From the NCBI RefSeq assembly GCF_009834535.1, contig NC_045696.1, positions 87,112,001-87,176,000 on the forward strand: a DNA stretch of 64,000 nucleotides. The letters are read 5' to 3'. Positions 37,590 to 60,769 of the stretch are shown one piece after another; positions within the stretch are counted from its first letter, which is position 1; each line of letters opens with the position of its first letter. Below the pieces are notes generated by a model, which did not search any database, was not told the origin of the DNA, and saw only the letters and a program-made list of their open reading frames with translations. A program made the position numbers and the translations under genes. The stretch comes from Camelus ferus (Eukaryota).

Positions 37590-38148
37590 TAAGGCTTTCT
37601 CAACCTTAGCTCTTGTCTTAGTCTTTGGTACAATGTTATAGTAGCCAGAGCAGACTAAGTGGCTCAAAACTGAAGTTTGCTTCTCACAGTTCCAGAGCCT
37701 AGAAGTCCAAGATCGGGGTGCCAGCATAGTTGAACTCTGGTGAGATCCTTCTTCTGGGTTGCAGACTTCTTTGTATCCTCATATTACGAGCATAGAGCAG
37801 CAAACTTATGTGTCTCATAAAAGGGCAGTAACGCCATTAATAAGGGCTCTGCTCTCATGACAACATTGAATCTTATTTATCTCCTAACAGCTCCACTTTC
37901 TAATACCATATCATGGGGAACAGAGGGCTTCCACATAATAATTTTGAAGGGACCTAAGCATCCAATCCATAGTAGTTTTTTTGACTATGTGGGTCAGGTA
38001 ATTCTTTGTCATGGGAGGCAGGTTTAGCAGCATCCCTACCCTCTATTCCTGATGTCAGAGGCACTGCTCAATTGTGAAAACCAAAAATGTCTCCAGATGT
38101 TGTCGAATATTCCCTGGGGTTCAAAACCACACTGATTGAGAACAACTT
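37590..38148. mobile_element. MER20 hAT element split by an MLT1 LTR
   Basis: 'tttctcaacctt' start, resuming with 'tttagcagcatccct...aaccaaaaatgtctccagatgttgtc...ttgagaac'. Confidence 0.75.
37614..37972 (-). mobile_element. MLT1A-like MaLR LTR
   Basis: 'tgtcttagtc...ttctcacagttccagagcctagaagtccaagatc...caatccatag'. Confidence 0.8.
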
Positions 38149-38604
38149 CTCTAGGTGGGTAGTTAAAGAAAATTTAATAGGAAAATATATGTGTACATAT
38201 ATATTTATACTATATATATATGCTTTATGTATACATACATTATATATATGCATATCTTATATATATATACACATACATATTTACTTAAATATGTTACTTA
38301 TAATAGAAGTAAGAAATAATTGATGGTATGCAGACTAATGACATATCTTCTTTGGTAATTTATAAATTGATTTGACTTGAATGACCTTGCCTTACCTTCT
38401 TTACTAAAGAATAGTATACTAAAATTCAGGTTTATCACATCATTAAAATCAGTAAACAGAATCAACTTTTATATTAACATGTATATTTTAATTGGTAATT
38501 CATAATTTCTTATTTTTATTTTCACAAATAACAAACCAAAGTCTCACCATACATAAGAAGTTGGGGCAGCTTCTATATTATTTAAGTACTTGAATTTACT
38601 GTTT

Positions 38605-41600
38605 ATTATTTTTTTAACATTTTTTATTGATTTATAATCATTTTACAATGTGTCAAATTCCAGTGTTCAGCACAATTTTTCAGTCATTCATGGACATATA
38701 CACACTCATTGTCACATTTTTTTTCTCTGTGAGTTATCATAACATTTTGTGTATATTTCCCTGTGCTATACAGTGTAATCTTGTTTATCTATTCTACAAT
38801 TTTGAAATCCCAGTCTATCCCTTCCCACCCTCCACCCCCCTGGTAACCACAAGTCTGTATTCTCTGTCTGTGAGTCTATTTCTGTCCTGTATTTACGCTT
38901 TGTTTTTGTTTGTTTGTTTGTTTTTGTTTTTGTTTTTTAGATTCCACATATCAGCGATCTCATATGGTATTTTTCTTTCTCTTTCTGGCTTACTTCACTT
39001 AGAATGACATTCTCCAGGAGCATCCATGTTGCTGCTAATGGCATTATGTTGTCGGTTTTTATGGCTGAGTAGTATTCCATTGTATAAATATACCACTTCT
39101 GCTTTATCCAGTCACCTGTTGATGGACATTTAGGCTGTTTCCATGTTTTGGCTATTGTAAATAGTGCTGCTATGAACATTGGGGTGCAGGTGTCATCCTG
39201 AAGTAGATTTCCTTCTGGATACAAGCCCAGGAGTGGGATTCCTGGGTCATAGGGTAAGTCTATTCCTAGTCTTTTGAGGAATCTCCACACTGTTTTCCAT
39301 AGTGGCTGCACCAAACTGCATTCCCACCAGCAGTGTAGGAGGGTTCCCCTTTCTCCACAGCCTCTCCAGCATTTGTCATTTGTGGATTTTTGAATGACGG
39401 CCATTCTGACTGGTGTGAGGTGATACCTCATTGTAGTTTTGATTTGCATTTCTCTGATAATTAGTGATATGGAGCATTTTTTCATGTGCTTTTTGATCAT
39501 TTGTATGTCTTCCTTGGAGAATTGCTTGTTTAGGTCTTCTGCCCATTTTTGGATTGGGTTGTTTATTTTTTTCTTATTGAGTCGTATGAGCTGCTTATAT
39601 ATTCTGGAGATCAAGCCTTTGTCGGTTTCACTTGCAAAAATTTTCTCCCATTCCGTAGGTTTTCTTCTTGTTTTATTTCTGGTTTCCTTTGCTGTGCAGA
39701 AGCTTGTAAGTTTCATTAGGTCCCATCTGTTTATTCTTGCTTTTATTTCTTCTAGGAGAAAATTTTTGAGATGTATGTCAGATAGTGTTTTGCCTATGTT
39801 TTCCTCTAGGAGGTTTATTGTATCTTGTCTTATGTTTAAGTCTTTAATCCATTTTGAGTTGATTTTTGTATATGGTGTAAGGGAGTGTTCTAGCTTCATT
39901 GTTTTACATGCTGCTGTCCAGTTTTCCCAACACCATTTGCTGAAGAGACTGTCTTTATTCCAATGTATATTCTTGCCTCCTTTGTCAAAGATGAGTTGGC
40001 CAAAAGTTTGTGGGTTCATTTCTGGGCTCTCTATTCTGTTCCATTGGTCTATATGTCTGTTTTGGTACCAATACCATGCTGTCTTGATGACCGTAGCTCT
40101 GTAGTATTTCTGAAGTCTGGGAGAGTTATTCCTCCAGCCTCTTTCTTTCTCTTCAGTAATGCTTTGGCAATTCTAGGTCTTTGATGGTTCCATATGAATT
40201 TTATTATGATTTTTTCTAGTTCTGTGAAATATGTCCTGGGTAATTGGATAGGGATTGCATTAAATCTGTAGATTGCCTTGGGCAGTGTGACCATTTTAAC
40301 AATATTGATTCTTCCAATCCAAGAGCATGGAATATCTTTCCATTTTTTAAAGTCTTCTTTAATTTCCTTCATCAATGGTTTATAGTTTTCTGTGTATAAT
40401 TCTTTCACCTCCTTGGTTAGACTTATTCCCAGATATTTTATTACTTTGGGTGCTATTTTAAAGGGGATTGTTTCTTTACTTTCTTCTTCTGTTGATTTAT
40501 CGTTAGTGTAAAGAAATGCAACTGATTTTTGAACGTTAATTTTGTAACCTGCTACCTTGCTGAATTCTTCAATCAGCTCTAGTAGCTTTTGTGTGGACCT
40601 TTTAGGGTTTTCTATATATAGTAACATGTCATCAGCATATAATGACACTTCTACCTCTTGTTTTCCAATTTGGATCCCTTTTATTTCTTTCTCTTGCCTG
40701 ACTGCTGTGGCTAGGACTTCCAGGACTATGTTGAATAGGAGTGGTGATAGTGGGCATCCTTGTCTTGTCCCAGATTTTAGTGGGAAGCTTTTGAGTTTTT
40801 CACCGTTGAGTACTATGCTGGCTGTAGGTTTGTCACATATAGCTTTTATTATGTTGAGATACGTTCCCTCTATACCCACTTTGGCGAGAGTTTTTCTCAT
40901 AAATGGGTGTTGAATTTTATCAAATGCTTTTTCTGCATCGGTTGAGATGATCATGTGGTTTTTGTCCTTTCTCTTGTTGATGTGATGTATTACACTGATT
41001 GATTTGCGTATGTTGAACCAGCCTTGTGTCCCTGGGATGAACCCCACTTGGTCATGATGTATAATCTTTTTTATGTGTTGGATTCTATTTGCTAAAATTT
41101 TGGTGAGGATTTTGGCGTCTATGTTCATCAGTGATATTGGCCTATAATTCTCTTTTTTTGTAGTGTTTTTGCCTGGTTTTGGTATCAGGGTGATGGTGGC
41201 TTCATAGAATGAGTTTGGGAGTATTCCCTCCTTTTCAATCGTCTGGAAGAGTTTGAGAAGGACTGGTATGAGTTCTTCTTTGTATGTTTGGTAGAATTCC
41301 CTGGTGAAGCCGTCCGGTCCTGGACTTTTATTTGTAGGGAGGTTTTTAATTGCTATTTCTATTTCCTTTCTAGGGATCGGATTGTTCAAGTGTTCAGATT
41401 CTTCTTGATTCAGTTTTGGTGGACAGTATGTTTCCAGAAACTCGTCCATCTCCTCTAGGTTATCCAGTTTGGTTCCATATAGTGTTTCATAATATTCTCG
41501 TATGATATTCTGTATTTCTATTTTGTTTGTTGTAATTTCTCCATTTTCCTTTCTTATTTTGCTAATTTGTGCTCTCTCTTTTTTCTTCTTTGTGAGTTTG

Positions 41601-41605
41601 GCCAG
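38605..41605 (-). mobile_element. Young 5'-truncated LINE-1 (RT domain, C-terminus, 3' UTR) with 13-bp TSD
   Basis: ORFs 40049-41449 (RT, YADD) and 38937-40019; TSD GAATTTACTGTTT at 38592-38604 and 41606-41618; TT/AAAA-type target site. Confidence 0.97.
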
Positions 41606-41749
41606 GAATTTACTGTTTTTTAAAAAAGCAAAATAAAGGTTTGTTCTGAAGTAGAGATATTAACATGGACCACATCGACAAAACATGCCTAAGGTATCTT
41701 GGCAAGTTGCTATTCCTGAGACTGGAATTAATGGACTGCTCAGAGTAAT

Positions 41750-42210
41750 TCATTGATTCAAGAATAATGTATTGAATGCCAACTGTGTTCCAGGCATTGT
41801 TATGGGTACCAGGAATATTGTAGTAAATAAGGCAAAGAAAAAATAACTTTTATACTACCCTGGAACTTTCCTTTTAATTGGGGGGAGGCGTTGAGACAGA
41901 ACAATAATAATAAATATGTTTTAAATATGTCTGTCTAACTAGATATATAATTTATGAAGCAAATAACGTATGTAACTGATTCAAGGAATGCCTGGTGTGG
42001 TTTGAGTGGTACTACATTAGCTAGTTAGAGGGCTCGTAAGGCCTTTTCAGGAGAGGTGACATTTGAACTTAGAGATAAGTGATGGAAAGTAGGCAGAACT
42101 ATGAAGGAAAAAATATTTCAGCCAGATGAATAGTAAGGTTCAGAGGATGTGGCATATATTACAGTGACAGCCTGCTAGTATGGCTGAAGCTTAAAGGAGA
42201 AAGTTGTGGG
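41750..42210 (-). mobile_element. L2 3' fragment
   Basis: 'cattgattcaagaataatgtattgaatgccaactgtgttccaggcattgtt'; 'gaggtgacatttgaactta'. Confidence 0.7.
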
Positions 42211-44764
42211 AGATAGATTTTCTTATAATTTTTAAAGCAATTATTGTTTTAAATAGCTTATGTATCTCCACTGGAATGTTGTCACACTTCTTAATTTATT
42301 AAGCATTTTTCTTTCAGATAGACAGTGTAAATATGCATTTAAATATAAACTCTATATGAATTTTAGACCGCTTCTACCAAACCATACCATTTCTTTCTGA
42401 AGTATTTCAGTTATTTGAAACATTTGCTCAGAGTGCTCACCAAAAGCTTTTGCTTTGCCATTTTGCTAGTCTGATGTTCTGCCACTGTCTTCTTCACCTT
42501 TTTCTTTCCTGTCTAACTTTGCTTCCTCTTATTTAGTCCCTTCTCAAGACCTGCCATGTATCCTGTCTTGGTCACAACCATTTTGATTGGATTTTAGTAT
42601 CTGTTTTGGCCTGCTTGCTGTACTAATCAGTAATTGTTTAGATTGGAAGGTAGCAAATTACTGCTCCAGTAAACCTCTTTAAAGATTAAAGTTTAAATTT
42701 TAAAGTTTGTTTTCTTATTTTCCCATTGAAAAATCATAGGGTCCTTAAAGTTGGAGAAAGTTGCATAAGTCTGTTTGGAAACTACATGGACTACTTGATC
42801 CCTTAGGCTCTAGTGTAATAGGTTTTTCACTCCACACACACGTATTTAATGCAAAGGCATGTACAAAGTTCTTGGGATACACTTGCAAATAAAGGAAAAT
42901 AAATAACCTGTTCTCACGGCAGTTATATTCTCAAGGAATGAGGCAGATTAAATGCCATAAACATCATGTATAACTGTTACATACTTTTAGAATGAAGTGC
43001 TATGGAAAAAAGACAAAAAAATCCCAACTCAAGGTTTATGATTGTGTATATATGTGGTATTTGTTTCAATTACAAACAGAATAGTCATAGTATATATATT
43101 GGAGATGATGATATTTGAGCCAAGACCGAAAAAAAAAAAAAAAACCTGTTTTATTCAGCTCATGTTAAAGAAGCTAGATAACTGAGTGGTACAATTATAA
43201 CTCAGTATTCTCTGCCAGTAGAAAATGTGTCTGGAAGACAGACATAAATAAGAGCATTTGCAATTATTTTAAATATAAGTTACAAATGCAGTTTTTGCAA
43301 TAGTCATTTCCTCTGACTGTTAGAAAATTATAGCTTTTGTTTCCTTAACCTTAGATTGTGTCCTTTACTAAGAAAATTCAATTTCATGGATGTCATTTTT
43401 CAAGAATGAACAGTTTTTAGTGAAATAAATTGCAGTCGTTTCCTCAATTCTTTCAATAAATTAGAAACTAAAATTCAAGCCAGTTTATATAACAAAAATT
43501 AGTTTGGTAGGTGAAATTTCATAAAAATCTGTCAGTGTTATATGTATGTGAGTGTCAATGGTGTATATGTATATATATCCAAGTATTTTATTGAAATCAA
43601 AAAAAATCTGAAACTGTATACATAATTTCATTAGATTTTTGCTTTATTTCGTTAACAGGTGCTATCAACAATTAATTCAAATTACTTGAAAAAGGTCATT
43701 TATCATCTAACTCACTGTAGAAAATGAAGAATTTAGGTGTATTTCAGTTGTATGTTTTTCATATAGAAAGTAATTTCTCAACTTGAATTAGAAAATACTA
43801 ATTCACAAATTAAATAAGGACAGTTTTCTGAGTCTCACATTAATAATTGGAATATCTTTGGCTTCATTTTTTATGAAGAAGGCAGTTTACTTCAGCACTG
43901 TATGTTTGGGTGATAGAATCAAATATGAACACACTATAGAAAGTTAAGGTTGCAAGACTAACTCATCACGTATTGTGGTGCCTTGTGGAACTAATTTTGG
44001 TTGTGTTTTATACAAATGCTATTATACTTTATATATGAGCCGTGTTCTAAACTCTTACGACTAGTTACTTCCTTAAACACAATGATTTGTTGATTAATAT
44101 TTAAAGCAATTTTGTTTGCTAATTTTAAGTAATGCAATGCTGATTTTAATTCTGCAATGCCAATTCACATTTGTTTCCTGATTTAGAACAGTCACCTTCA
44201 AATTGTTAAATGTTTTCAGATCTAAGCAATTCCTAGAAATAGGGAATATACATTATAATATTTTATCATGTTATTTTAGTCAAAATATCTATAGCTAAAA
44301 TATATTAACATATGGAAATGAGAATTTGAAAGAATATTTTAATGTGGCGAATAGGAGTGTATCTTAAGAAAATACTTATTTATACTCCATAATACTGTTT
44401 AGGAAATTACCCCCCAGACTTTAAAAAGGATGTGATACTCTTTTGCAGAAATATGTGTTCTAGCCTGTTACTGGCTTGTTGACCTCCTAAAGCCCTAATA
44501 AAATATCTTAGTGTCTAGTTTTAAAAGAATGTCTTTAATGGATAGAATGATGATTCTGTCATTCTATTCCCAATTATCCTTAAATGTGCGTCTTCATTTG
44601 ACTGAAAAGTGTGTGGAGTGCTACTGCTCATGAAGAGGAATGTCCTTTCTAAAGTCTCTATAAAATTTTAGGGTTGTGTTTCTCGAACATTGTGATGTGT
44701 AAGAAGGCAGCTGGAACTTGGGATCAGATAACTTGAACTAAGAGACTTAGATTTTAATGTGATC

Positions 44765-45060
44765 CCAGTAAATATAGCAATAATCTTTAAAAAATGAAGC
44801 TAGTCAAGTAGACACTGAAGTTCATACAGAGAAATAAACATTGGACAATAGCTAGGTATGCACTAAAAGGGAAAATATATAAGGAAGTAAATGGTTTTAC
44901 CAGATATTACAACATACTGTACAGGCTCTGTGATTAGTGTGGTACAGGCATGTGACTAAAGGTCTAGATAGACTGAACTTCCTATAGAAATCCATTATAT
45001 GGTAAAGATTTCAAAGATCGTATTTTTCCAACAGCTGGACTGACATTTGGAAAAAAATAA
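44765..45060 (+). mobile_element. Old L1 ORF2 fragment
   Basis: Degenerate LKFIW/RIAK/VWYW-region sequence ('ctgaagttcata', 'gtgtggtacaggcat'). Confidence 0.5.
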
Positions 45061-46879
45061 ATAAATGCCTCATTCTCATTAGCTTTCTATATTTCCTATT
45101 CAGAGTTAATACAACATTGATTTATTTGTACTTTCCTTTTCCTTAATCAATGCATTTTCCCATTGTTGTACTCTAGCTGTATTCTGTTGGTTGATATGGA
45201 TGGTACTTAACTTCACTCTTACCCTAAGCAATCTGTTACATTATGCTTAAAACTCTGATGCAGTTTTAGAATATTTAACAGACACTTATCCGTGGGAAAT
45301 GGTTAGCTCACATGTTATAAACCATTCAAGATTAGCTAATAATATTCACATAGAAATAGCATATAATTCACCAGTGCTTGAAATTGAACACTCTATTGAG
45401 GGCGTTTTTAGTTCACTCTATTTAGGGTATTTTTAGTTATGTTAGAAAGAATATATTTTATTCAATTCAATTGAAATGATGCACTTAATATTTTGGTGTT
45501 GTAGCACAAAATAAATGTTAAAAAGCTATTATTTTCAAATAGATTCTAAAGAATACAGTTGTAAAATTGATAGTAACTTTGATACCTGTCTCTCCTAAAG
45601 GGTGTTCTGCACTTCCCTCTTCATATATATTATACTGAGAAAAATATTAATGTTCATCCATTGTTTATGTGGCTTGGCTTATTCTCAGTTTTATTTGGTT
45701 TATATGAAACATTTGTGTTGCTACATTGTTCTTCAAATTTTCTGAAACATACTAGTTAACAAGATGTCATGCCACTGCTATAGTGAATTTAGCATTTTAG
45801 AATAAAAGAGAGATGTGAATAATTACAATATCAAGATAACCTTATGTTATCCCTTCCTAAAATGCTAACACTGCACTGCATTTTCATTCATTGCTGAAAA
45901 TTAGAGTTGAGAAATGAAAGAACACGATTTACACTGTATGTAGAAAAGTTGTTGAAAATATCACTGAAGGCCTTCATTAACATATATGGAGTTGTTTTTG
46001 TTGAAGACACCAAGTTGAAGCAGTTTGCCTTTTCCTGCTAATTTTAATTACTGCCTTTGTGAATTTCTTTACGACTGCCAAATTTTCAAGTAATGATGTG
46101 TTCTGTAATGGCATTCATCAGGTTGTCATTCATTTTGTGAAGTTAAAACTAATTGGCAATGCTTTTAAGAGCAGCTTGTTAAAAAAAAAATCCTTTAGAT
46201 AGATGTGTTAGCAGTGGGGGAAAAAAAAGCCTCAAACTGCCCAGCAAACAGATGGTTCAATAAAAATAAAATAAATTGCATGTTTGCCAAGCTACATGCA
46301 TTCCCTTGACATGTGAAAAAAAGGAAATGGTAATATGTCTGTAGTTTGAAGAATCTACTGTTTAAGGCATGAATTCTGAATTTCATAATTTTTAACAAAA
46401 AGTAACATAACCATAGATCCTTTTGAAGGTTAAACAAGTGTATACTGAATATTTCATCATGCAAGTATCATATAGCTATCAGGAAGCTCTGGAAGATTAT
46501 GTGCAGTCATTTCTCAGTACTTCACATACGATTCTCAATTCTATAGATTTATACATTGACTGGATATATTCCAAACCCATAACTGACGTTAAGGAAGCCA
46601 TTGATTCTTCAGTTAACTAAAGTCCTTGATAAATATGCTGTACTGTTTTGGAAACTAACAGAGATAGGTTTATCCTTCACAGGGCAGAGCCAGATAGCGT
46701 GGGGGAGGAACCAGCCCAGATATATGTTCCTTATCTCTCTTGAACCCAAGATGCTTAAAGTGACCTCAATTTCCTGATTAAAATTCACTCCACTAATAAA
46801 TCCATAATAAAAAACTGATGTACACAAAGAAACATTCTTACTTGGAAATTAAGGAAGGCACTGCTAGGGAAACCTACGT

Positions 46880-47060
46880 GATGGTTCTTCAGTTGTGATC
46901 CCTGATTCAGCAGCATTAGATCACCTGGGGACTTGTTCGACATGTACATTATTGGATCTCACTCCAAATCTACTTAGAGTCTCTGGGACTGGGCCAACAT
47001 TTGTGTTTTTACACACTCTTCAGGTGACTGTGAAACATACTAAATTTTGAGAGGCACTGC
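46880..47060. mobile_element. MER5A hAT MITE
   Basis: 'cagcagcattagatcacctggggacttgtt...caggtgactgtga...tttgagaggcactg'. Confidence 0.75.
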
Positions 47061-50000
47061 CACAGACCAAATGAACCTTAAAAAAAAATTTCTTCTGTAA
47101 AATAATGAATATTATATTTTATGAAACAGTGAAATCTATACTCAGGTTGAAAAGATTGACATCTTTTAAAGGCTCAAAATTGATACTTAAAATATAAATT
47201 ATAGCTTAAAATATTTAAGGTCATATGAGGTCACATAAAAGGATAATTACCTCCTCAGTTCTTTTTAGGAATTCAGCGTAACAGTGATAGCAAAGTATAG
47301 ATAACAAATATAGATAACACTTACATGTGTTGCCCCTTTAAGCTGGAAATAAAGCAAACCTGAAAAAGATAAAATTAATACATAAACGAATGTAAGAAAT
47401 GCCAGTTGTTAAAATGATGTTTGCAGAGACTCAAGAAACACAAAATAAATAGAATTCAATTTTAGTTGACTTAATATTAGTTTTCTGTGCCTTTTCCTCC
47501 TGATGAAATGTTGCATTAAGTTAAAGCTCATGATCCTGGTTTTCCTGAGAACTAGATACTTAACAATCTATCTCTGAATAACCTGGTGTATTAAAGTGTA
47601 TGGATAATATGTGAAAATTAATTTAAGATATCCCTTTATTTTTTAATAGGAAAATAATTTAAAACGAGGATCTGGTTATAAAATATGCATGGCCTGGCTT
47701 CAGGAGAATTTGCCTGCTGCATTACCAAATATTTTCTCTAACTTGTTAATCTGTGTATGATCTACACTTGAAGCTGTATACAAAGTTTAGTTTATGAGAA
47801 TAGACTGCATTTACATTGAAAGCTATAAGATGATTTGAGACATATAGGATAAGTCTAATTTTGCTTCTATTAATAACCTTTTCCCATTTTTGCCAATTTG
47901 TTGTTGGTACTTAAGAGTTTAATTATTTAGAACACAGTTATCATTCCGGGAAAATATACTCTCCTAGAGAGAGTAAGTTGTTGACTTTTACAAATCTTAA
48001 GTGATCTTTCAAGTTATAGAAAAGGCAGAATATATAACTTAAAACAATGGATAGAGTACAAAAAATTTTAGGAATATGATAAAGTTCCAAGAGCAATTTA
48101 GGTGACTGATGTCATTATAGAATATTAGTTATGACATATTTAAGTAGTTTGAAATTCAGTATATTTGATAATAATGCTAAAAACTAGAAATGGTATATTA
48201 CTGGTATGTTGTCAAAACTCAATACTTTTGAAAGGAACTGGAAAGAAATGAAGAATGAGTTAAAATGTGAGCTACCTTTAGATGTGTATTTTTCCTTTGA
48301 TCTCTACTTAACAAAATGTTACATTACTTGTAAACATTCACAAAATAATTTGAAGAAAAGTAACTTCTGTGACTAGTTATGATAACAAGACAATTGTTAA
48401 GATTAAGAATATTTGTCTCTGCTAGTAATTAATGCAGGCTGTTTATAAGTTTAAATACATTGAAGTTGGGTAGAGTTAAACTTTTTTTTCCAGAAGCTTC
48501 TCAGATGAAATATTAAAATTAAATTACATGGATCTCTTGTTCAAAAGAAAATAATATAAAATAGTTATTGAGGGTTTTTCTTTACTATTAATCATAATCT
48601 GGCATTAAATTTGCTTCAGGTATAAATACTATAGAAATATAAACACTTTTAAAATGAAGTATTAGATGTATTAAAATTTTTCAAATATAAAAGAAGAATA
48701 TTAGACACAGGAATGTATGAGAAGGATGTTTGTATGCAGTCTTAATTTTATTTGATTGACTTAACATAACTGTTAAACTTATAACATTTGGCTAACTTTA
48801 AATCATTAAGGTATAAAGATGTACATATATACAGGAATATATACATATATTCATATATGTATGCATACATATGTGTAGGTAATATGTAAGAATTAACATT
48901 CCTTCAAAACTTGTACTGAGATTACTGATGTCAATATTTTGTAATTTAAATATAGCTGATTATAAAAGCCTATCCATTACAAAAAATTTCCTCATGGCTT
49001 ACTGAATTAACCTGTGCATGTAAATTTTCACCATTAAGTTGAATTCAGTGTGCCATTTCTCCTCAGACTTAGATAAACACCATGAGCCCATCACAGATGG
49101 TGGTAATAGTCCCATCAATGACAATGGAGTCACTTGTTATGACAAAATATTAGGTCAAAACCACCCAGCGAAGTAAAATGGCATCCCATCAATTTCTATA
49201 ACACCTTAGATATGCTCAACAATAGGCTATCACAGCAATAATTACACAATAACTGATCACTGAAATGGTAATGCTATTAAATCTAGACAGCAAGGGGAAT
49301 GTGATAACATAAGGCTATAAAATATGGTGCTTCAGTTATATTAGGAGTTATACGTTAACGGCTCAACTAAGGTAACATAAAGAGCCTCAATTATTACATA
49401 ATACCAAATAATTATATGAAAGTATTAGCATAAAAACAGTTTGTTCATACATTATTCTAATATAATTTTAATGAAGAAGTTTTATCGCATAATTTGGAAA
49501 TATTTTCACCAATGAATGTGTTTGGTCCAAATTTGGTTTTAAAGGTCAAAAGTAATTAAAAGAGCTGTACATAAATCATCATCTAGCATATCATTGCACT
49601 TTATGGTATTAGTCCAGTCATTTAAGAAAGAAAGCTCTTACCCAAAATATAAAATGGAAGGAAATGGGAGGGAAAAAAGTGTAATTTGCGAATATGCTAT
49701 TAAAATGGTTCATGAACAAGTTCTGAATTGCATTTAACTATGCCAGCCTCCAGTATAATGGTGACTGAGCTTAGGTAATAATCATAATCTGCTTGACATT
49801 AAGACCTTATGCTGCCATTATCAGTTGTAAAGCGTTACAGGTTACACATCACTTAGTTGTCTGAGCCTGCATCACACGCTCTAGGGGCACTGTCACCAGT
49901 CAGTAACAGATAGCCAACTTGGACTTTGTGTTTTCTGAAAAATTGAGTAGAAAAGTTGAATATATTACTTAGCATAACATTGAAATATCTTAAGCAAAGT

Positions 50001-51240
50001 AAAATACAACACTTCGCATAAGTATATTTTATTTGTGTGGGGTTTTTTTTGGCTCATTCATTTGTTTTTGATATGAGAAAAGTATTAAAACTTTGTCATA
50101 AAAATAATTTTAGTATGTAAAGTGTTGGATCAACTTCTTGCAGTTTTATCATTTATTTAGTCCCCCATCCTAGGCACCTGGCAATCATCTGAATTAGCTA
50201 AACCTTGTCTTTTACCTAATAATTCCATATCTCTGTCCCCAAGTTTTATTGGTTTTATATTTTTAACATTTTTTTCAAAGCTATTTCCATGTCTACTGTT
50301 AATACTGTAATTAAATGAAACGTGATAGGACTTGATTTGTACTACTTAGCAGTCATAACTTCTCTTCCAGTCTCCATTCTAGCTTTATTCAGTTACATCC
50401 TTTATGTGTCCTCTAGGAAGACACATCTAAAACAAAACCATCTTTAGGTGGTTTCCCCATTACTTTGAGCATGATACACATTTGATCACCTATTTCAGTG
50501 GTTCTAAAACATTACTGTGCATATGAATCACTTGGTGAACTTGTTAGATTCGTTTTACTTGCTAGATTTCAGAGCTTAACCCTCAGAAAGTCAAATCAAG
50601 TAGTAGTGTCAATGTGGGGTCAGAATCTATATTTTGATGAACACCCACTGTGCCCTGGATGACCTGGCTACCTCACCCCTGGTAGTTTCTCACTATTTGA
50701 CATATTTTAAGCTTAATATTACAAAATTGTAGTACTCCCTCTTCCTTGATGCTGAGGGATGCCAAAAAAAGTATACAGATGAACAAAAATTATGTCTATA
50801 ATAAGTGTTAGGAAGAAATCAGAAGAAGACAGAATTATGCGTATTTTTTTTTTTTTTTATGAGGTGGTCAGGAAAGGCCTCTTTGTGGAGGTGATTTTGA
50901 CTTGAGATCCTAATGAAGTAAAGAAAAGCCATATTAACATCTGTATTAAAACCATTCTGGACAGAGACAAAGGTCCTAAATCTGGAGTTCAGTGGAAAAT
51001 GGGTTGTAAAAGGAGGCACAGTTTGAGATTCAGGATGAGACATTCATCTTTTAGGGCTGGATGATAGAGCTTTTAGGTAAAGAATACCTAAAATGCTAGG
51101 TAAAAAAAAAAAACAAACAACTATTGAATTTTTCTGAGAGGATCCCTAGTACCTAACATTTCAAACAAGTTTGCAAAGGTGTTATGATGTATCATATGAT
51201 TAATAATTTTATGAATTTTTACTGGGAAGACATTGTAGAA

Positions 51241-51420
51241 GAGTGGCTCTCAAGTGTTGGCAAGCATCAGAGCTGGTGAAAACATTTTTGTTATGCCTCA
51301 TCTCCACAAAGTTTTCCAAATCAGTCATTTTAGGAATTGGGCCTGAGAATTTGCATTTCTAACAAATTCCCAGGTGATGCTAATCTTACTGGTCCAGGGA
51401 TCACATTTTGAAAACCACTG
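51241..51420. mobile_element. MER5A hAT MITE
   Basis: 'gggcctgagaatttgcatttctaacaaattcccaggtgatgct...ggatcacattttgaaaaccactg'. Confidence 0.85.
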
Positions 51421-51488
51421 TTGAAGAATTTTGAGCCAGGTAACAACAAAGACGAGTTTATAATTTCATAGTGTCTGTAGGCTGACTA

Positions 51489-51528
51489 GGAGGTAAGTTA
51501 TAGCCTAGGGAGGTAAGTTATAGCCTAG
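51489..51528. repeat. Perfect 20-bp tandem duplication
   Basis: ggaggtaagttatagcctag x2. Confidence 0.95.
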
Positions 51529-52426
51529 GGACAATTCCTTGCAAAAAGAATATACTTCCTGAATCATCAAGTGATGAAGGATGGATTCCTTTTTTGAAGT
51601 TAAAAATGATAGGGCTGGCAGTGAGGCTGCAGTGTGACAGTGAAAGGAAGGTGGAAAGAGAAGAGCTCAGATGCTGGCAGGAGGCAAATCAAGACAGAGC
51701 AAGATCCTTCAGGGCCTGGTAGGCCATGTTAATTACAAAATTAAAATAGTCTCCTGAATGTTGTAAACTTTTACATGCATTCACTTAACTAACTGTACAA
51801 TAATCACTTGAAGTAGGTAGAAGTTAATACCTCCCATGAGAATATGAAGGGTTTTTATTGAACTGAATTCTTGACATTTTATCAAATAGATTTAGGAGAC
51901 ATCTTTGAGATATACTGACACTTAAAGACAGTGTTAGTTTAGCCTTATCAGAGGATTGGGAGCACAAAGTAGCCTAGAAGCAGAAAATGGAAGCAAGTAA
52001 GAAGAGAGACCACAAAATACTGATAAAACCCAAAAGATATTGATAATTCTCAAAGAAACAGTATTATTCATCAATGTTTCAATCCTATTTATGATCTCTT
52101 ATAATCAGGGTTGGTGAAAAATAAAAGTAAAAGAAAGATGGCCAGGTGTAACATGAGACATTTTATTATGTGTACATATCCAAGTTTATTAGTCATGGAT
52201 TCATTAACATATAATCTTTGAGGAAAAAATGTGGCTATTTGGTAAAATTGCATATAAATAGGCTGAGAGAATACAGGTATGTACTTTATTGAAAGTCATG
52301 TGTTTTCATATTTCTTATCTATTATTTATTGAGTACATAGCTTTTCAAAGCTAGGAGTGGAAATCTTAAAAAAAAAAATTAAAATGCCCTAAATAGAAAA
52401 CATTAGATGTCTTATTAATTTGTTTT

Positions 52427-52703
52427 TCTTATTGAAGTATAGTTGATACACAATGTTAGCCTCTGGTGTACAACATACTGATTTAGTTATATACGTATAT
52501 ATGTTTTCTTTTATATTTTTCATTATGGGTTATTACAAGATACTGAATGTAGTTCCCTGTGCTATACAGTAGGACCTTGTTGTTTATCTACTCTGTACAT
52601 AGTAGTTTGTATCTGCCAATCCAAAAACTACTTTATCCCTCCCTACCTTTCCCCTTTGGTAACCTTGAGTTTGTTTTCTATGTCTGAGAGTCTCTTTCTG
52701 TTT
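52427..52703 (-). mobile_element. Short L1 3' end insertion with ~19-bp TSD
   Basis: L1 3' UTR 'ttattgaagtatagttgat'; flanks tgtcttattaatttgtttt (52408-52426) and tgtcttattaatgtgtttt (52704-52722). Confidence 0.85.
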
Positions 52704-53432
52704 TGTCTTATTAATGTGTTTTAATACATGCAGCTTGGACAGGGAAATTGGAAAGTACTTTCATGTTACTCCACTTGTCCAGTATTCTGCCTCACACATA
52801 CATACTCTACATAGATGGAGTGGTTTTCAGTATGCGTCTACATTCAGTATTCTGCATGAATTTCTTTTGTAAGAGGAAGCATTGAGAGATTAAACTAAAA
52901 TAATAGCCACATGACAAGGAACAAAAAGAAAGAAAGGAATAGGGGAATTAAAATAGCTCTTTTTAAGAATATGCCAATTTTTTTTTTACTGTAACCATAA
53001 ATTTTAATGTAGATGCTTGCATTTGACTAGTGCCAAGAAGTCCCATTACTCTAAGTCACCCCAAGCATATTCAGCACATCTTGCTCGAGGCTTTTTTTTT
53101 TTTTTTTTAACATTTTTTATTGATTTATAATCATTTTACAATGTTGTGTCAAATTCCAGTGTTCAGCACAATTTTTCAGTTATTCATGGACATATACACA
53201 CTCATTGTCACATTTTTTTTCTCTGTGAGTTATCATAACATTTTGTGTATATTTCCCTGTGCTATACAGTGTAATCTTGTTTATCTATTCTACAATTTTG
53301 AAATCCCAGTCTATCCCTTCCCACCCTCCACCCCCCTGGTAACCACAAGTCTGTATTCTCTGTCTGTGAGTCTATTTCTGTCCTGTATTTACGCTTTGTT
53401 TTTGTTTGTTTGTTTGTTTTTGTTTTTGTTTT

Positions 53433-56400
53433 TTAGATTCCACATATCAGCGATCTCATATGGTATTTTTCTTTCTCTTTCTGGCTTACTTCACTTAGAA
53501 TGACATTCTCCAGGAGCATCCATGTTGCTGCTAATGGCATTATGTTGTCGGTTTTTATGGCTGAGTAGTATTCCATTGTATAAATATACCACTTCTGCTT
53601 TATCCAGTCACCTGTTGATGGACATTTAGGCTGTTTCCATGTTTTGGCTATTGTAAATAGTGCTGCTATGAACATTGGGGTGCAGGTGTCATCCTGAAGT
53701 AGATTTCCTTCTGGATACAAGCCCAGGAGTGGGATTCCTGGGTCATAGGGTAAGTCTATTCCTAGTCTTTTGAGGAATCTCCACACTGTTTTCCATAGTG
53801 GCTGCACCAAACTGCATTCCCACCAGCAGTGTAGGAGGGTTCCCCTTTCTCCACAGCCTCTCCAGCATTTGTCATTTGTGGATTTTTGAATGACGGCCAT
53901 TCTGACTGGTGTGAGGTGATACCTCATTGTAGTTTTGATTTGCATTTCTCTGATAATTAGTGATATGGAGCATTTTTTCATGTGCTTTTTGATCATTTGT
54001 ATGTCTTCCTTGGAGAATTGCTTGTTTAGGTCTTCTGCCCATTTTTGGATTGGGTTGTTTATTTTTTTCTTATTGAGTCGTATGAGCTGCTTATATATTC
54101 TGGAGATCAAGCCTTTGTCGGTTTCACTTGCAAAAATTTTCTCCCATTCCGTAGGTTTTCTTCTTGTTTTATTTCTGGTTTCCTTTGCTGTGCAGAAGCT
54201 TGTAAGTTTCATTAGGTCCCATCTGTTTATTCTTGCTTTTATTTCTTCTAGGAGAAAATTTTTGAGATGTATGTCAGATAGTGTTTTGCCTATGTTTTCC
54301 TCTAGGAGGTTTATTGTATCTTGTCTTATGTTTAAGTCTTTAATCCATTTTGAGTTGATTTTTGTATATGGTGTAAGGGAGTGTTCTAGCTTCATTGTTT
54401 TACATGCTGCTGTCCAGTTTTCCCAACACCATTTGCTGAAGAGACTGTCTTTATTCCAATGTATATTCTTGCCTCCTTTGTCAAAGATGAGTTGACCAAA
54501 AGTTTGTGGGTTCATTTCTGGGCTCTCTATTCTGTTCCATTGGTCTATATGTCTGTTTTGGTACCAATACCATGCTGTCTTGATGACCGTAGCTCTGTAG
54601 TATTTCTGAAGTCTGGGAGAGTTATTCCTCCAGCCTCTTTCTTTCTCTTCAGTAATGCTTTGGCAATTCTAGGTCTTTGATGGTTCCATATGAATTTTAT
54701 TATGATTTTTTCTAGTTCTGTGAAATATGTCCTGGGTAATTGGATAGGGATTGCATTAAATCTGTAGATTGCCTTGGGCAGTGTGACCATTTTAACAATA
54801 TTGATTCTTCCAATCCAAGAGCATGGAATATCTTTCCATTTTTTAAAGTCTTCTTTAATTTCCTTCATCAATGGTTTATAGTTTTCTGTGTATAATTCTT
54901 TCACCTCCTTGGTTAGACTTATTCCCAGATATTTTATTACTTTGGGTGCTATTTTAAAGGGGATTGTTTCTTTACTTTCTTCTTCTGTTGATTTATCGTT
55001 AGTGTAAAGAAATGCAACTGATTTTTGAACGTTAATTTTGTAACCTGCTACCTTGCTGAATTCTTCAATCAGCTCTAGTAGCTTTTGTGTGGACCTTTTA
55101 GGGTTTTCTATATATAGTAACATGTCATCAGCATATAATGACACTTCTACCTCTTGTTTTCCAATTTGGATCCCTTTTATTTCTTTCTCTTGCCTGACTG
55201 CTGTGGCTAGGACTTCCAGGACTATGTTGAATAGGAGTGGTGATAGTGGGCATCCTTGTCTTGTCCCAGATTTTAGTGGGAAGCTTTTGAGTTTTTCACC
55301 GTTGAGTACTATGCTGGCTGTAGGTTTGTCACATATAGCTTTTATTATGTTGAGATACGTTCCCTCTATACCCACTTTGGCGAGAGTTTTTCTCATAAAT
55401 GGGTGTTGAATTTTATCAAATGCTTTTTCTGCATCGGTTGAGATGATCATGTGGTTTTTGTCCTTTCTCTTGTTGATGTGATGTATTACACTGATTGATT
55501 TGCGTATGTTGAACCAGCCTTGTGTCCCTGGGATGAACCCCACTTGGTCATGATGTATAATCTTTTTTATGTGTTGGATTCTATTTGCTAAAATTTTGGT
55601 GAGGATTTTGGCGTCTATGTTCATCAGTGATATTGGCCTATAATTCTCTTTTTTTGTAGTGTCTTTGCCTGGTTTTGGTATCAGGGTGATGGTGGCTTCA
55701 TAGAATGAGTTTGGGAGTATTCCCTCCTTTTCAATCGTCTGGAAGAGTTTGAGAAGGACTGGTATGAGTTCTTCTTTGTATGTTTGGTAGAATTCCCTGG
55801 TGAAGCCGTCCGGTCCTGGACTTTTATTTGTAGGGAGGTTTTTAATTGCTATTTCTATTTCCTTTCTAGGGATCGGATTGTTCAAGTGTTCAGATTCTTC
55901 TTGATTCAGTTTTGGTGGACAGTATGTTTCCAGAAACTCGTCCATCTCCTCTAGGTTATCCAGTTTGGTTCCATATAGTGTTTCATAATATTCTCGTATG
56001 ATATTCTGTATTTCTATTTTGTTTGTTGTAATTTCTCCATTTTCCTTTCTTATTTTGCTAATTTGTGCTCTCTCTTTTTTCTTCTTTGTGAGTTTGGCCA
56101 GAGGTTTGTCGATTTTATTTACTTTTTCAAAAAACCAGCTTTTGGTTTGGTTGATTTTTTCTATGGTCTTGTTAATCTCTATCGTATTTAATTCCTCTCT
56201 GATCTTTATTATTTCCTTCCTTCTGCTGCTTTTTGGGGCTTTTTGTTCTTCTTTTTCTGATTCATTCAGGTGGTGGGTTAAATTGTTTATTTGAGATTGT
56301 TCTTCTTTTTTGAGGAAGGCCTGTATCACTATAAACTTCCCTCTTAGCACTGCCTTTGCTGTGTCCCATAGGTTTTGAGTGGTTGTGCTTTCATTATCAT

Positions 56401-57226
56401 TTGTCTCAAGGTATTTTTTAATTTCAGCTTTGATTTCCTCATTGATCCATTGTTTTTTCAATAACATATTGTTTAATCTCCATGCTTTCCTTGTTTTCTC
56501 CTTTGTTTCTCTGTTGTTGATTTCCAGTTTCATGGCATTGTGGTCAGTAAAGATGCTTGAGATAATTTCTATCTTCTTAAAATTGTTGAGGTTTCTTTTG
56601 TGCCCAAGTACATGATCGATCCTGGAAAATGTTCCATGTGCACTTGAAAAGAATGTATATCCTATTTTTGGGGGGTGTAATGCTCTGAAAATATCCACCA
56701 AGTCTAGTTTTTCTATTGTAGTATTTAATTTCTCTGTTGCCTTGTTTATTTTCTGTCTGGAAGATCTGTCTAGTGATGTTAATGCAGTGTTAAAATCTCC
56801 AACTATGATTGTATTCCCATCAATATCCCCCTTTATCTCTGTTAGTAATTCTTGTATGTACTTAGGTGCTCCTATATTGGGTGCATATATATTAATGAGT
56901 GTAATATCCTCATCTTGTATCACTCCTTTAATCATTATAAAATGTCCTTCTTTATCTTTCTTTATGGCCTTTGTTTTAAAGTCTATTTTGTCTGAAATCA
57001 GTACTGCAACACCTGCTTTTTTGGCTTTTCCATTTGCATGGAATATCCTTTTCCATCCTTTCACTCTCAATCTATATGTGTCCTTCTCCCTAAAGTGGGT
57101 CTCTTGTATGCAGCATATTGAAGGTTCTTGCTTTATTATCCAGTCTGCCACTCTGTGTCTTTTGACTGGAGCATTTAGTCCATTAACATTTACAGTAATT
57201 AATGATAGATGTGTGTTTATTGCCAT
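53433..57226 (-). pseudogene. L1 ORF2 (APE endonuclease, RT, C-terminal domain), one frameshift near 54605
   Basis: 893-aa ORF (NVNGLN, GDFN, TDHN, YADD) leaves frame after LPDFR; C-terminal part continues in ORF 53433-54515. Confidence 0.95.
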
Positions 57227-57630: not shown

Positions 57631-58535
57631 TTAGAATAGCCCTTTCAATATTTCTTTTAGCATGGGTTTAGTGTTGCTAAACTCCTGCAGCTTTTTTTTT
57701 TTGTCTGTGAAACTCTTTATTTCTCCTTGTACCCTCAAGGATAGCCTTGCTGGATAAAGGATCCTAGGCTGCATCTTTTTTTCATTCAGGGCTTTGAATA
57801 TATCTTGCCACTCCCTTCTGGCCTGTAGTGTTTGTGTAGAGAAATCAGCTGAGAGCCTTATGGGGGGGTTCCCTTGTAACTTACTCTTTGCTTTTTCTCT
57901 TGCTGCCTTTAGAATCATTTCTTTATCCTTGACTCTGGCCATCTTGATTATGATATGTCTTGGTGTGGGTCTATTTGGGTTCTTCCTGTTTGGGACCCTC
58001 TGAGCTTCCTGTACTTGGATATCTGATTCCTTCTTTAAGTTTGGGAAGTTTTCAGTCATGATTTCTTCAAAAACCTTTTCAATCCCCTTTGATCTTTCTT
58101 TTCCTTCTGGGACCCCTATTATGCAAAGATTGGGACGCTTTATATTATCCCATAGGTCCCTTATGCTATTTTCATTATTTTTTATTTGCTTCTCTTGTAG
58201 TTCTTCTGAATGGGTGCTTTCTATTGCCCTGTTTTCTAGATCACTAATTCGTTCCTCTGCATTATCTAGTCGGCTTTGCACAGCTATTAGATCATTCCTC
58301 ATCTCTGTCAATGAGTTTACCCATTCTACTTGGCTCTTCTTTATAGCTTCAATTTCATTTTTGACATACTTTGTATCTCTAAACACACTTTTAATTCCTT
58401 CAGCAATTCGATCACTCCTTTTTTGAAATCTTGATCTAGTAGGCTATCGATGTCTATTTCATTGATCTTTCTTTCAGGGGATTTCTCTTGTTCTTTTAAT
58501 TGGGAAAGGTTTTTCTGCTTCTTCATCTTGCTCAT
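57631..58535 (-). pseudogene. L1 ORF1 (RNA-binding protein), frameshifted
   Basis: Split into ORFs 58341-58535 and 57631-58386 (LWDNIKRPNL, PRHIIIKM, RREW, YPARLS); locally out-of-frame patch 'KAKSKLQGNPP'. Confidence 0.93.
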
Positions 58536-59029
58536 ACCTCTTTGGCACTGTGGTTTATGGAGTATCAGTTGTTTATTTTGGTCCTTAAGGGTTTTATCTA
58601 TCTAATGCCTATTTAGGAATAGAACTTAGGAAAAAAAGAAAAATAAATAAGAGAGAGAAAGAATTTTAAAAGAAGGGAGAAAGAGGGTTTGAAAACAGTG
58701 TATAATGAATAATAGAAGAGTGAGTTGAAGCAGATTATTAATCGGGTTGAGATGTCCTTTTGAAAACCTTTACAAAAAAAAGGGGGGGGGGAGATGAATA
58801 GATGTATTTGAAACCTGTGTCTAATCAATAGCAGGACATCAAAACCCAAGAGAAATAGAAATGAATTAAGAAGTAAGAATTAAGAGAGTAATAGAAAATA
58901 GAACAGGTAAAAACAGATTTAAAAAAAAAGGGGGGGGGTTTGTCGGTGTTCTCCTGGAGTCTGTGTGCTTTCACTGTGAAGTCTTTCTGTCTTCGTCCTG
59001 TTTTGGAAGCTCAGCTTGCTGTTTTCAGA

Positions 59030-60211
59030 GGCCCTCCGTTGGCGCCCTCTTCTGTGCTGCTCCCAGCACCTGTCGGCAAGCAGATCGCGCCTCCTCCTAA
59101 CACTGGGTCAGGTGCAGCTCTCTGCTGTGGGCGGGCAGGTCGCTGCCCCTCCGGATGCCTCAGTCAGATGTTGCAGACTGGCCAGGTAGGAGGGCGGGTC
59201 GTGCCCCCTCCCAGCACCTCGGTCAGGGGCTGTGTTCCTGCCCGAAAGGCGGGGGGGCCGCTCTCCCTCTACCTGCGCCGCCGGTAGCTCCGCTCTCTGT
59301 GCGGCTGCGCGCTCCTCCCTGGTTGGCGCTCCGCAGGTTGGCTCGGGGAAGACCAAGGGACAGCCCTGTCCCTGCTCCGAGCCAAAACCCAGCTCCTTGT
59401 TTGTTTTTGTGGAGCAAGTTCTCTGAGGGACCAGGATGGAAGGATCCTATCTGCCCTGGGCTGCAGGCCAGTCTCAGTCTGGCCTTTGGGGCTGCTAAGC
59501 CCTTCGGTGCGGATGCAGGTTTCGCCCCCGCCCCCGCCTGAGTGCTCAGGGCGGAGGATATGGCGGCTGTGCCTGAGCCCCGCACCTCTTCCCCCGAAAA
59601 CTTTCCGCGGGTTTTCAGAGATGGGGGTGTGCACCCTTCCCCCGAGAGCACATCAACCTTGCTGTTTTATGGAGGGCCCAGGTTGTTCTGCCCTGTGCAC
59701 CCACAGCCAAGGCGCGCAGCCCCTTGCGTTCCCCTGGGGCTGCCTCCGTGCAGCCACTTCCGTCCTCCGCCCGGCTTGTGCAGCCTGGCCCTGCCCGCCA
59801 CTGCCGGCCCGCGTCTCAGGCTGGGTGTCGGGGGGATGCTCTGTGTCCGTTTAACTTAGTTCTGTTAGTCAAGGGCTGCTCTGTACAGATGCGAGCCTTG
59901 GAGGCTCCCCTTCCGTCCCGCTGGCCTCTCAGTTGGAGAGGGGAGACCCAGCGAGCGAGCGCCAGTCCTCCTTTGCCGCTCCCTCCCCGCGGGACCTGTC
60001 CCGCGCTGCTTTGCCTTTTGTTCTTTCTTTTTTCCTTTTCTCCTACCAGATTTTTGGCGTCTTTATCTTTTGAAGAGGGCGATGTTCTGTCGGAGTTCCA
60101 CAGGTGCTCTGGTTGGCTGAGTGGGTCTGTAGATGTGGGTCTTGGTGTATTTGTGGGAGAGGGTGACCCTACGAGCGTCCTTCTACTCCGCCATCTTCTC
60201 CGTCTCTCCCC
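59030..60211 (-). promoter_or_regulatory. L1 internal promoter, CpG island with 5'-terminal YY1 motif
   Basis: GC/CpG-rich; AAGATGGCGG at 60188-60197 (minus). Confidence 0.8.
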
Positions 60212-60769
60212 AAACAATCTGATGTTGAAGAAATAAGGTAATTTCTGATTAATAAGGGTTAGTAGATGTTGCTACCTCATGTTCTCATATTAGGGAATTA
60301 TAACATCTTAGTACAGGCTGCCAACATTTTGTGGAAGGATAAACAGTGGCCTAATGAGCCAACAGAAGCTAAGTTTATCTACTCACCTACATTTTATCAG
60401 TCTTGTCTTAATGGGAATTTATATGCTTTACCTTTCTCATTCTTAAACTGAATTCATCCTGTGACTTGGAGTACATTTATAAGGTGTTAGTTTTGTAGTG
60501 AGAGAAACTCTCTCCTACCTTGCAACCAAGCTGCTGATCCAAGCCTAATTAATGCAGTACTCCATCATACTAGCTACATGGAATATAAATCAAGATCTGA
60601 AACTTACACAGGTCTATCTATTTGGGATAAAGGTAAGGATGGTTGGCAAAAGTTTACATGGCTAAATATTTAATAGGGATAGTGTTATGTGTCCTAATCT
60701 ATTTTTATGATAAATATGACAGTGTATTTTCCGAGGAGAGTTGCAACAGTAGTTCCTATTTCATATGCT

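What the first reader, a model, noticed from the sequence alone, without database searches (positions are those of the whole stretch)
38605..56100. Two neighbouring L1s are almost identical and share the same inactivating frameshift
Seen: 38.6-41.6 kb matches 53.1-56.1 kb (offset 14,496) with only about four differences that I could spot by eye. Both carry the same non-homopolymer frameshift after LPDFR (~40108 and ~54605). Both also share departures from the usual L1 ORF2 sequence: [26 protein letters not shown]. The short copy has its own TSD and different flanks, so it is not a segmental duplication. Known: L1 acts mainly in cis and needs the ORF2 C-terminal domain. Inference: local gene conversion between the copies, trans-mobilisation or local hopping of a defective donor, a non-autonomous or frameshifting subfamily, or assembly homogenisation.
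Basis: partly seen in the sequence, partly recalled or inferred. Interest (0 to 1): 0.7.

Follow-up and report, generated by a model that had tools for sequence, protein, structure and literature searches.

The report
Dead camel L1 overwrote its neighbour
Two broken LINE-1 jumping-gene copies 11.5 kb apart in a camel-family genome are 99.9% identical and share the same defects, likely because DNA repair recently copied the long one over an older, separately inserted short one, which is a known process, although an assembly artefact or a spreading defective family is not excluded.

Summary
A 5'-truncated L1 (38604-41605) and a full-length L1 (53092-~60212), same strand, differ by three substitutions and one 3-nt indel in 3 kb and share an ORF2 frameshift and three in-frame losses. 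The short copy has its own 13-bp TSD and endonuclease site; its 3' junction is in a public run's contig with no difference. The long copy is also broken in ORF1, so it cannot hop in cis. Two of the four differences lie in the last 74 bp; one is at a site where the camelid family itself is split (183 of 432 reads). The short copy therefore looks like a mosaic: own 3' tip, neighbour's body. Best reading (0.55): non-allelic gene conversion, long copy to short, tract about 2.9 kb. Rivals: assembly homogenisation 0.15, propagating defective subfamily 0.13, trans-mobilised RNA 0.12. No read was laid on ORF2 and no genome was held, so the frameshift is unverified and its copies uncounted. 'Non-homopolymer' is not established. 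The scan noted similar pairs before (cat-family genome, another genome, and 14.5 Mb away in this one). Known process; low interest.

The parts
38591..38603 (.). Short copy: TSD copy beside the tail (GAATTTACTGTTT on +)
   Evidence: junction held with 0 differences by contig record 9 of run X2, 38321-38631
38604..38618 (-). Short copy: short, twice interrupted A-rich tail
   Evidence: same tail in X2 record 9; 54 of 54 X24 reads and most contig depth have the other letter at 38608
38612..38685 (-). Short copy: 3'-terminal 74 bp holding 2 of the 4 differences (3-nt loss at 38648; C at family-split site 38685); likely the unconverted remnant
   Evidence: the unconverted status is inference
38686..41605 (-). 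Short copy: body, 2 differences in about 2920 bp; inferred conversion tract; ORF2 RT and C-terminal domains with frameshift at 40109-40107
41606..41621 (.). Short copy: TSD copy at the 5' truncation point, followed by a T6/A6 endonuclease-type site
   Evidence: the TT/AAAA consensus is recalled knowledge
53092..53435 (-). Long copy: 3' UTR and pure A17 tail; no TSD found
53433..57226 (-). Long copy ORF2 (EN and RT domains); frameshift at 54605-54603; one codon short after residue 551; 6 and 1 residues short in the C-terminal domain
57631..58535 (-). Long copy ORF1; frameshift near 58390-58365 and two compensating shifts near 57895 and 57865
58536..60212 (-). Long copy 5' UTR, GC-rich part with 68 CpG (observed/expected 0.57)

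Best explanation
The two copies are separate L1 insertions, and the body of the short one was likely overwritten by the neighbouring dead full-length copy through non-allelic gene conversion, which would explain why both carry the same defects. Shown: the short copy has its own TSD, endonuclease-type site and tail; the long copy is broken in ORF1 and ORF2; the bodies are nearly identical. Inferred: (1) the short copy inserted from another member of the same young camelid family; (2) the long copy decayed in place; (3) a break in the short copy was repaired on the homologous long copy 11.5 kb away, replacing about 2.9 kb, from between 38686 and 38717 to at or near the 5' junction, in one long tract or several; (4) one or two further changes arose since, about 70,000 years ago (95% range 8,000-250,000) at the published camel rate. 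A cDNA of the long copy as template instead of its DNA cannot be told apart here.
For: Separate TPRT marks and unrelated flanks. The junction and interrupted tail exist in run X2. 2 of 4 differences lie in the last 74 of 2994 bp, P = 0.004, or 0.007 for either end; the window was chosen after seeing the data. At 38685 the family is split (T in 183 of 432 X24 reads, 34-43% of contig depth) and the copies carry opposite letters; a fresh mutation would hit such a site and letter about 2.5% of the time for 3 substitutions. The long copy's states at 38685, 38717 and 38775 each occur in 37-42% of X24 reads (homogeneity P = 0.29), as one subfamily haplotype would; the short copy has two of them but not the first. 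A daughter lands within 15 kb of its parent with chance 1.4e-5, whereas 5000 long young copies (assumed number, assumed 2.1 Gb) would give about 180 neighbour pairs open to conversion. About 12-13% of sampled words are missing in 13 of 14 whole-genome-size runs and 9% in X1; about 4.5% would be missing if the shared ORF2 departures were family-common, about 12% if 12 of them are rare. Conversion between TE copies rises with proximity and identity (PMC6598467, section 4; PMC8230782, passages); breaks in LINEs can be repaired from another LINE in cis (passage in PMC3055243 citing Tremblay 2000, not seen).
Against: No read or contig was laid on ORF2, so the frameshift is not verified outside this assembly and not counted in the genome. 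Linkage of the three 3' UTR sites is inferred from equal shares, not seen; contig-depth shares do not agree with it (38685 T 0.34-0.43, T8 0.49-0.58, 38775 G 0.14-0.19), and X24 is RNA from the other organism and may come from few loci. The mosaic argument rests on one diagnostic site; PMC8230782 asked for at least three. The copies are 14.5 kb apart in register, beyond the roughly 10 kb range quoted for Alu, and 2.9 kb is longer than usual tracts (recalled; one search found no paper). No shared private substitution was seen in 282 bp of 3' UTR, so the element is within about 1% of its subfamily (P0 = 0.06 at 1%) and several 'departures' may be family traits. Missing words could also be bubbles dropped from contigs or errors of this assembly. 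Presence of the short copy in organism B was not shown: X3, like X1, had no flank coverage.
Confidence: 0.55

Rival explanations
1. Assembly homogenisation: both insertions are real, but the assembler or polisher filled the short copy's interior with reads of the neighbouring copy, or wrote the same systematic indel into both.
For: The interior was never checked against reads. All four frameshifts of the long copy lie in or beside short A or C runs. All 11 homopolymers are identical between copies. 9-13% of words are missing in every large run. Earlier unchecked notes report suspected errors in this assembly (e1-8090717, e1-9141267).
Against: The window has no N in 64 kb and holds a whole 7.1-kb L1, which suggests reads long enough to span a 3-kb copy (inference). 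Four differences remain, two of them interior. Independent random indels would differ between copies; there is no 1-bp indel between them in 3 kb. In-frame losses of 3, 18 and 3 nt are not typical consensus errors (own knowledge). The junction and tail match X2 exactly.
Confidence: 0.15
2. A propagating defective subfamily: a full-length camelid L1 lineage with a frameshifted ORF2 spreads in trans, and two of its many copies happen to be neighbours.
For: The 3' UTR is at a common family haplotype with no shared private change in 282 bp. 3 of the 4 shared ORF2 indels keep the frame, so some departures may come from a lineage under selection. The long copy looks young: A17 tail, CpG o/e 0.57 in the 5' UTR. 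Earlier unchecked notes describe many ORF1-only half-L1 copies in this genome.
Against: About 400 long copies are needed for one pair within 15 kb. Word shares of 0.87-0.91 are lower than the 0.93-0.955 expected if the departures were common (weak). The copies differ at a family-split site. L1 proteins prefer their own RNA and trans-complementation of defective L1 RNA is called rare (PMC5860796, passages). The frameshifted tail occurs in 0 of 378 held proteins, but no camelid protein covered it.
Confidence: 0.13
3. One-off trans-mobilisation: RNA of the dead long copy was reverse-transcribed by an active L1's proteins, perhaps after a template switch from another L1 RNA about 75-100 nt in, and inserted 11.5 kb away.
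For: The short copy has ordinary TPRT marks. The long copy keeps a CpG-rich promoter region. A template switch would also give a mosaic 3' tip (inference).
Against: Chance of landing within 15 kb is 1.4e-5 per daughter, and local hopping is not a known L1 habit (own knowledge). The short copy's tail is short and interrupted while the supposed parent's is pure A17; tail length falls with age (PMC3812793, passages), though it shortens fast at first, so this is weak.
Confidence: 0.12
4. A DNA-level repair duplication of the long copy's 3' part that only looks like an insertion, as earlier notes proposed for another pair in this genome.
For: It would explain locality and identity; unchecked notes e1-9253079 and e1-9915210 read a pair 14.5 Mb away this way.
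Against: Exact 13-bp TSD, endonuclease-type site, own tail, no flank carried along, and no microhomology at the 5' junction base.
Confidence: 0.04

Closest known systems
Non-allelic gene conversion between transposable-element copies (PMC6598467, abstract and section 4 seen; PMC8230782, passages seen)
   Same: Separately inserted neighbours made nearly identical; a mosaic of subfamily-diagnostic letters; old inactive elements can be donors and whole acceptors can be replaced (14 of 52 loci in PMC8230782).
   Different: Here L1, not Alu or LTR; about 2.9 kb; 14.5 kb apart in register; only one diagnostic site and no orthologous unconverted allele seen.
Repair of a break in a chromosomal LINE by conversion from another LINE (Tremblay, Jasin and Chartrand 2000; seen only as cited in a passage of PMC3055243)
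   Same: LINE-to-LINE conversion in cis or trans.
   Different: That was an induced break in mouse cells; here a germline event is inferred from sequence.
Camelid LINE-1 (Camelus dromedarius ORF2 fragment KAB1253934.1, P0381)
   Same: 89% identity over 137 aa of the C-terminal domain, the closest named protein; standard 5' UTR, ORF1, ORF2, 3' UTR, tail layout.
   Different: It does not cover the frameshift or the four motifs; it is probably another, decayed copy.
Trans-complemented defective L1 RNAs, SpIREs and processed pseudogenes (PMC5860796, passages); HAL1 half-L1 families (recalled and from earlier notes)
   Same: A defective L1 RNA can be moved by another element's proteins and leaves TPRT marks.
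   Different: No tendency to land beside the donor is known to me; HAL1 lacks ORF2 whereas these copies keep a frameshifted one.

Membership tests
Mammalian LINE-1 | ORF1 (Transposase_22 domains) and ORF2 with EN and RT | tested here: met
   Pfam PF02994, PF17490, PF17489, PF03372, PF00078
TPRT insertion (short copy) | TSD, endonuclease-type site, A-rich tail, 5' truncation | tested here: met
TPRT insertion (long copy) | TSD | tested here: not met
   No repeat of 10 bp or more between the flanks; a blunt insertion or small target deletion is possible
Autonomous L1 | Intact ORF1 and ORF2 | tested here: not met
   (as assembled)
Segmental duplication | Similarity extends into flanks | tested here: not met
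Non-allelic gene conversion | Copies arose independently | tested here: met
   Own TSD and tail, different flanks
Non-allelic gene conversion | Mosaic of diagnostic letters with a tract boundary | tested here: inconclusive
   One family-split site plus clustering at the 3' tip; linkage not seen
Non-allelic gene conversion | Unconverted allele or orthologue at the acceptor site | not testable with these tools
   No genome held; no camelid loci in metagenome, genome or viral collections
Non-autonomous L1 subfamily | Many dispersed copies share the defect | tested here: inconclusive
   No direct count; word shares argue weakly against
Assembly artefact | Spanning reads disagree with the assembly | not testable with these tools
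   No long reads among the 24 runs listed; only 38300-38890 was laid, where X2 agrees at the junction

The most novel reading that the evidence does not exclude
Camelids carry a young, transcribed, full-length L1 lineage whose ORF2 is frameshifted before the C-terminal domain and whose ORF1 is broken, and which still spreads by borrowing proteins in trans, or a dead L1's RNA was copied back into or beside its own locus; either would bend the cis-preference rule in a natural germline.
Probability: 0.15. Interest if true: 0.7.

Novelty: new member of a known kind. Interest (0 to 1): 0.25.

Why it matters
If conversion is right, this is one more case showing that kilobase-long L1 neighbours can be homogenised, so that shared defects and near-identity need not mean a shared active source, and divergence-based ages of L1 copies can mislead. 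That is useful but known. If a frameshifted full-length lineage were spreading in trans, it would be a natural exception to L1 cis preference and worth a paper; one genome-wide count settles it.

Tried and rejected
No whole genome is held, so the direct copy count was impossible. Three protein searches (one listed each) returned no camelid ORF2, best identity 82, 81 and 88%. The representative search (150 listed) gave one dromedary fragment that does not cover the diagnostic sites. The window's own ORFs are not in the protein collection (3 of 3). Pattern scans found 0 matches in metagenome contigs, genome contigs (33) and viral contigs (34); the protein scan of metagenomes gave 47 loci, best 79-86% on segments, none camelid-like. 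The old L1 at 34446-36517 (68%) is too distant to polarise changes beyond hints. X1 and X3 gave no flank coverage, which proves nothing. Summed contig depth was not used as a copy number. Cis hopping rejected (both ORFs broken); segmental duplication rejected; 3' transduction as the reason for the long copy's missing TSD found no support. Programmed frameshifting was not tested and has no evidence. Paper searches showed no report of neighbour L1 conversion in camelids or of a frameshifted non-autonomous L1 lineage; I read listings only for most hits, and the library lacks most subscription papers. Passages of PMC13192797, PMC10883270 and PMC8232201 added nothing specific. No supplements were opened. 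Atlas search of the 24634-25167 frame gave only a 0.76 hit.
Full report
Observation. The two segments match as described: one HSP, 38602-41605 against 53095-56101, 99.73%, and nothing in the flanks. Apart from the tails they differ at 38648 (3 nt), 38685, 39999 and 41167. Both are minus-strand L1. The long copy is full length, 53092 to about 60212, with a GC-rich 5' UTR, ORF1 and ORF2 domains. ORF2 leaves its frame after LPDFR in both copies, at an A3 run. Whether the indel is a homopolymer slip cannot be told, because relatives have L, T, K or Q at that residue. The closest named protein is a Camelus dromedarius ORF2 fragment, 89% over 137 aa. An earlier unchecked note calls this genome wild Bactrian camel. 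Two organisms hold 0.87-0.91 of the words of 37600-42600 in 14 large runs.

State of the copies. Shared departures from other mammals: the frameshift; one residue fewer after position 551 (315 of 375 relatives have it); 6 residues fewer near 992 (91 of 95 have 6-7 more); 1 fewer near 1035 (98 of 105); and 9 substitutions at positions where at least 90% of relatives agree. No camelid protein covers these sites, so private damage and family traits cannot be separated. The long copy's ORF1 has a frameshift near 58390-58365 and two compensating shifts near 57895 and 57865. As assembled it makes neither protein whole and cannot move itself. It has a pure A17 tail and no TSD. The short copy has a 13-bp TSD, a T6/A6 site of endonuclease type, and a short interrupted tail: an ordinary TPRT insertion, not a segmental duplication.

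Reads. Only 38300-38890 was laid, on 4 of the 24 runs. A 311-nt contig of X2 (organism A) crosses flank, TSD, tail and 3' UTR with no difference, so the insertion and its tail are real. X1 and X3 show no flank coverage, which proves nothing. The family is large: 17310, 7834 and 7800 contigs and 1442 RNA reads were laid. At 38648 the family carries the three letters (235 of 496 reads plus clipped ends), so the loss is the short copy's own. At 38685 the family is split, T in 183 of 432 reads; the long copy has T and the short copy C. At 38717 and 38775 both copies have states seen in 169 of 454 and 280 of 715 reads. The three long-copy states have the same share, 37-42% (P = 0.29), as a single subfamily haplotype would. 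The short copy then has that haplotype except at the 3'-most site. Linkage is inferred, not seen, and contig-depth shares (0.34-0.43, 0.49-0.58, 0.14-0.19) do not match it, although they too would need all four letter combinations at 38685 and 38775. No site in 282 bp separates both copies from nearly all reads, so the element is within about 1% of its subfamily.

Mechanism. Two of four differences lie in the last 74 of 2994 bp (P = 0.004-0.007, chosen after the fact), and one of them is a family letter rather than a fresh mutation (chance about 2.5%). This fits a short copy that came from another family member and kept its 3' tip while the body was replaced by the neighbour's sequence, with the boundary between 38686 and 38717. 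Locality points the same way. A retrotransposed daughter lands within 15 kb with chance 1.4e-5; a defective subfamily needs about 400 long copies for one such pair; neighbour pairs open to conversion would number in the hundreds if there are 5000 long young copies (genome size and copy numbers assumed). Word shares give a weak further hint: 9-13% are missing, against about 4.5% plus flank variants if the ORF2 departures were common and about 12% if 12 are rare. The same shortfall would arise if contigs drop those alleles or if they are errors of this assembly. Two interior differences in 2920 bp date the last homogenisation to about 70,000 years (8,000-250,000) at 2.5e-8 per 5-year generation (rate from a passage of PMC8605555), or twice that at half the rate.

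Rivals. Assembly homogenisation (0.15) is open because ORF2 was never compared with reads, the long copy's frameshifts lie at short A or C runs, and earlier notes suspect errors in this assembly; against it stand a gap-free window, four remaining differences and in-frame losses. A propagating defective subfamily (0.13) fits the young look of the long copy (CpG o/e 0.57 against 0.02 in the old L1) and the noted half-L1 copies, but needs many copies and runs against cis preference (PMC5860796, passages). One-off trans-mobilisation with a template switch (0.12) explains the mosaic but not the place. A repair duplication (0.04) does not explain the TSD.

Comparison with what is known. Conversion between TE copies is documented for Alu and LTRs, rises within about 10 kb and with identity, and can replace whole elements (PMC6598467, abstract and section 4; PMC8230782, passages). 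LINE-to-LINE repair is cited in PMC3055243 (passage; Tremblay 2000 not seen). It works like that process; membership is not proven, since one diagnostic site is fewer than the three asked for in PMC8230782 and no unconverted allele was seen. The tract is long and the distance a little beyond the Alu range. Nine paper searches showed no camelid case, within a limited library and mostly from listings. The scan's own notes hold similar pairs; they are leads, not support.

Verdict. Real, most likely an instance of a known process. Interest 0.25. The bold reading, a frameshifted L1 lineage spreading in trans or an RNA copied back beside its locus, keeps about 0.15 and is settled by one genome-wide count.

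Noticed in passing
window 34419-34313 (-), then 34263 to about 33149: Full-length U6 (Rfam RF00026, 91.7 bits, model 1-105) followed after about 50 nt by an L1 3' end, lying inside an older L1 (36517-34446 and 33123-32764). Looks like a U6/L1 chimeric insertion, a known class (PMC6789731, listing only). Best TSD candidate only 8 bp.
   Followed up: partly
window 60212 and 53092: The full-length L1 has no TSD; its 5' flank ends in TTT and the 3' side begins in the A tail, which fits a blunt insertion or a small target-site deletion.
   Followed up: partly
window about 54255-54125 and 39760-39630: ORF2 C-terminal domain is 6 and 1 residues shorter than in nearly all other mammals (91 of 95, 98 of 105); may be a camelid family trait.
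   Followed up: partly
window 57630-57227: Inter-ORF spacer of about 400 bp; earlier notes describe a 75-codon third frame in such spacers of this genome.
   Followed up: no
window 24500-25600: CpG-rich stretch (o/e 0.52) with several open frames; possible exon or CpG island; Atlas gave nothing above 0.76.
   Followed up: partly
window 51489-51531: Perfect 20-bp tandem duplication, 2.2 copies.
   Followed up: no
P0329, P0339: L1 ORF2 fragments deposited as Helicobacter pylori hypothetical proteins, likely host contamination.
   Followed up: no
   Followed up: no
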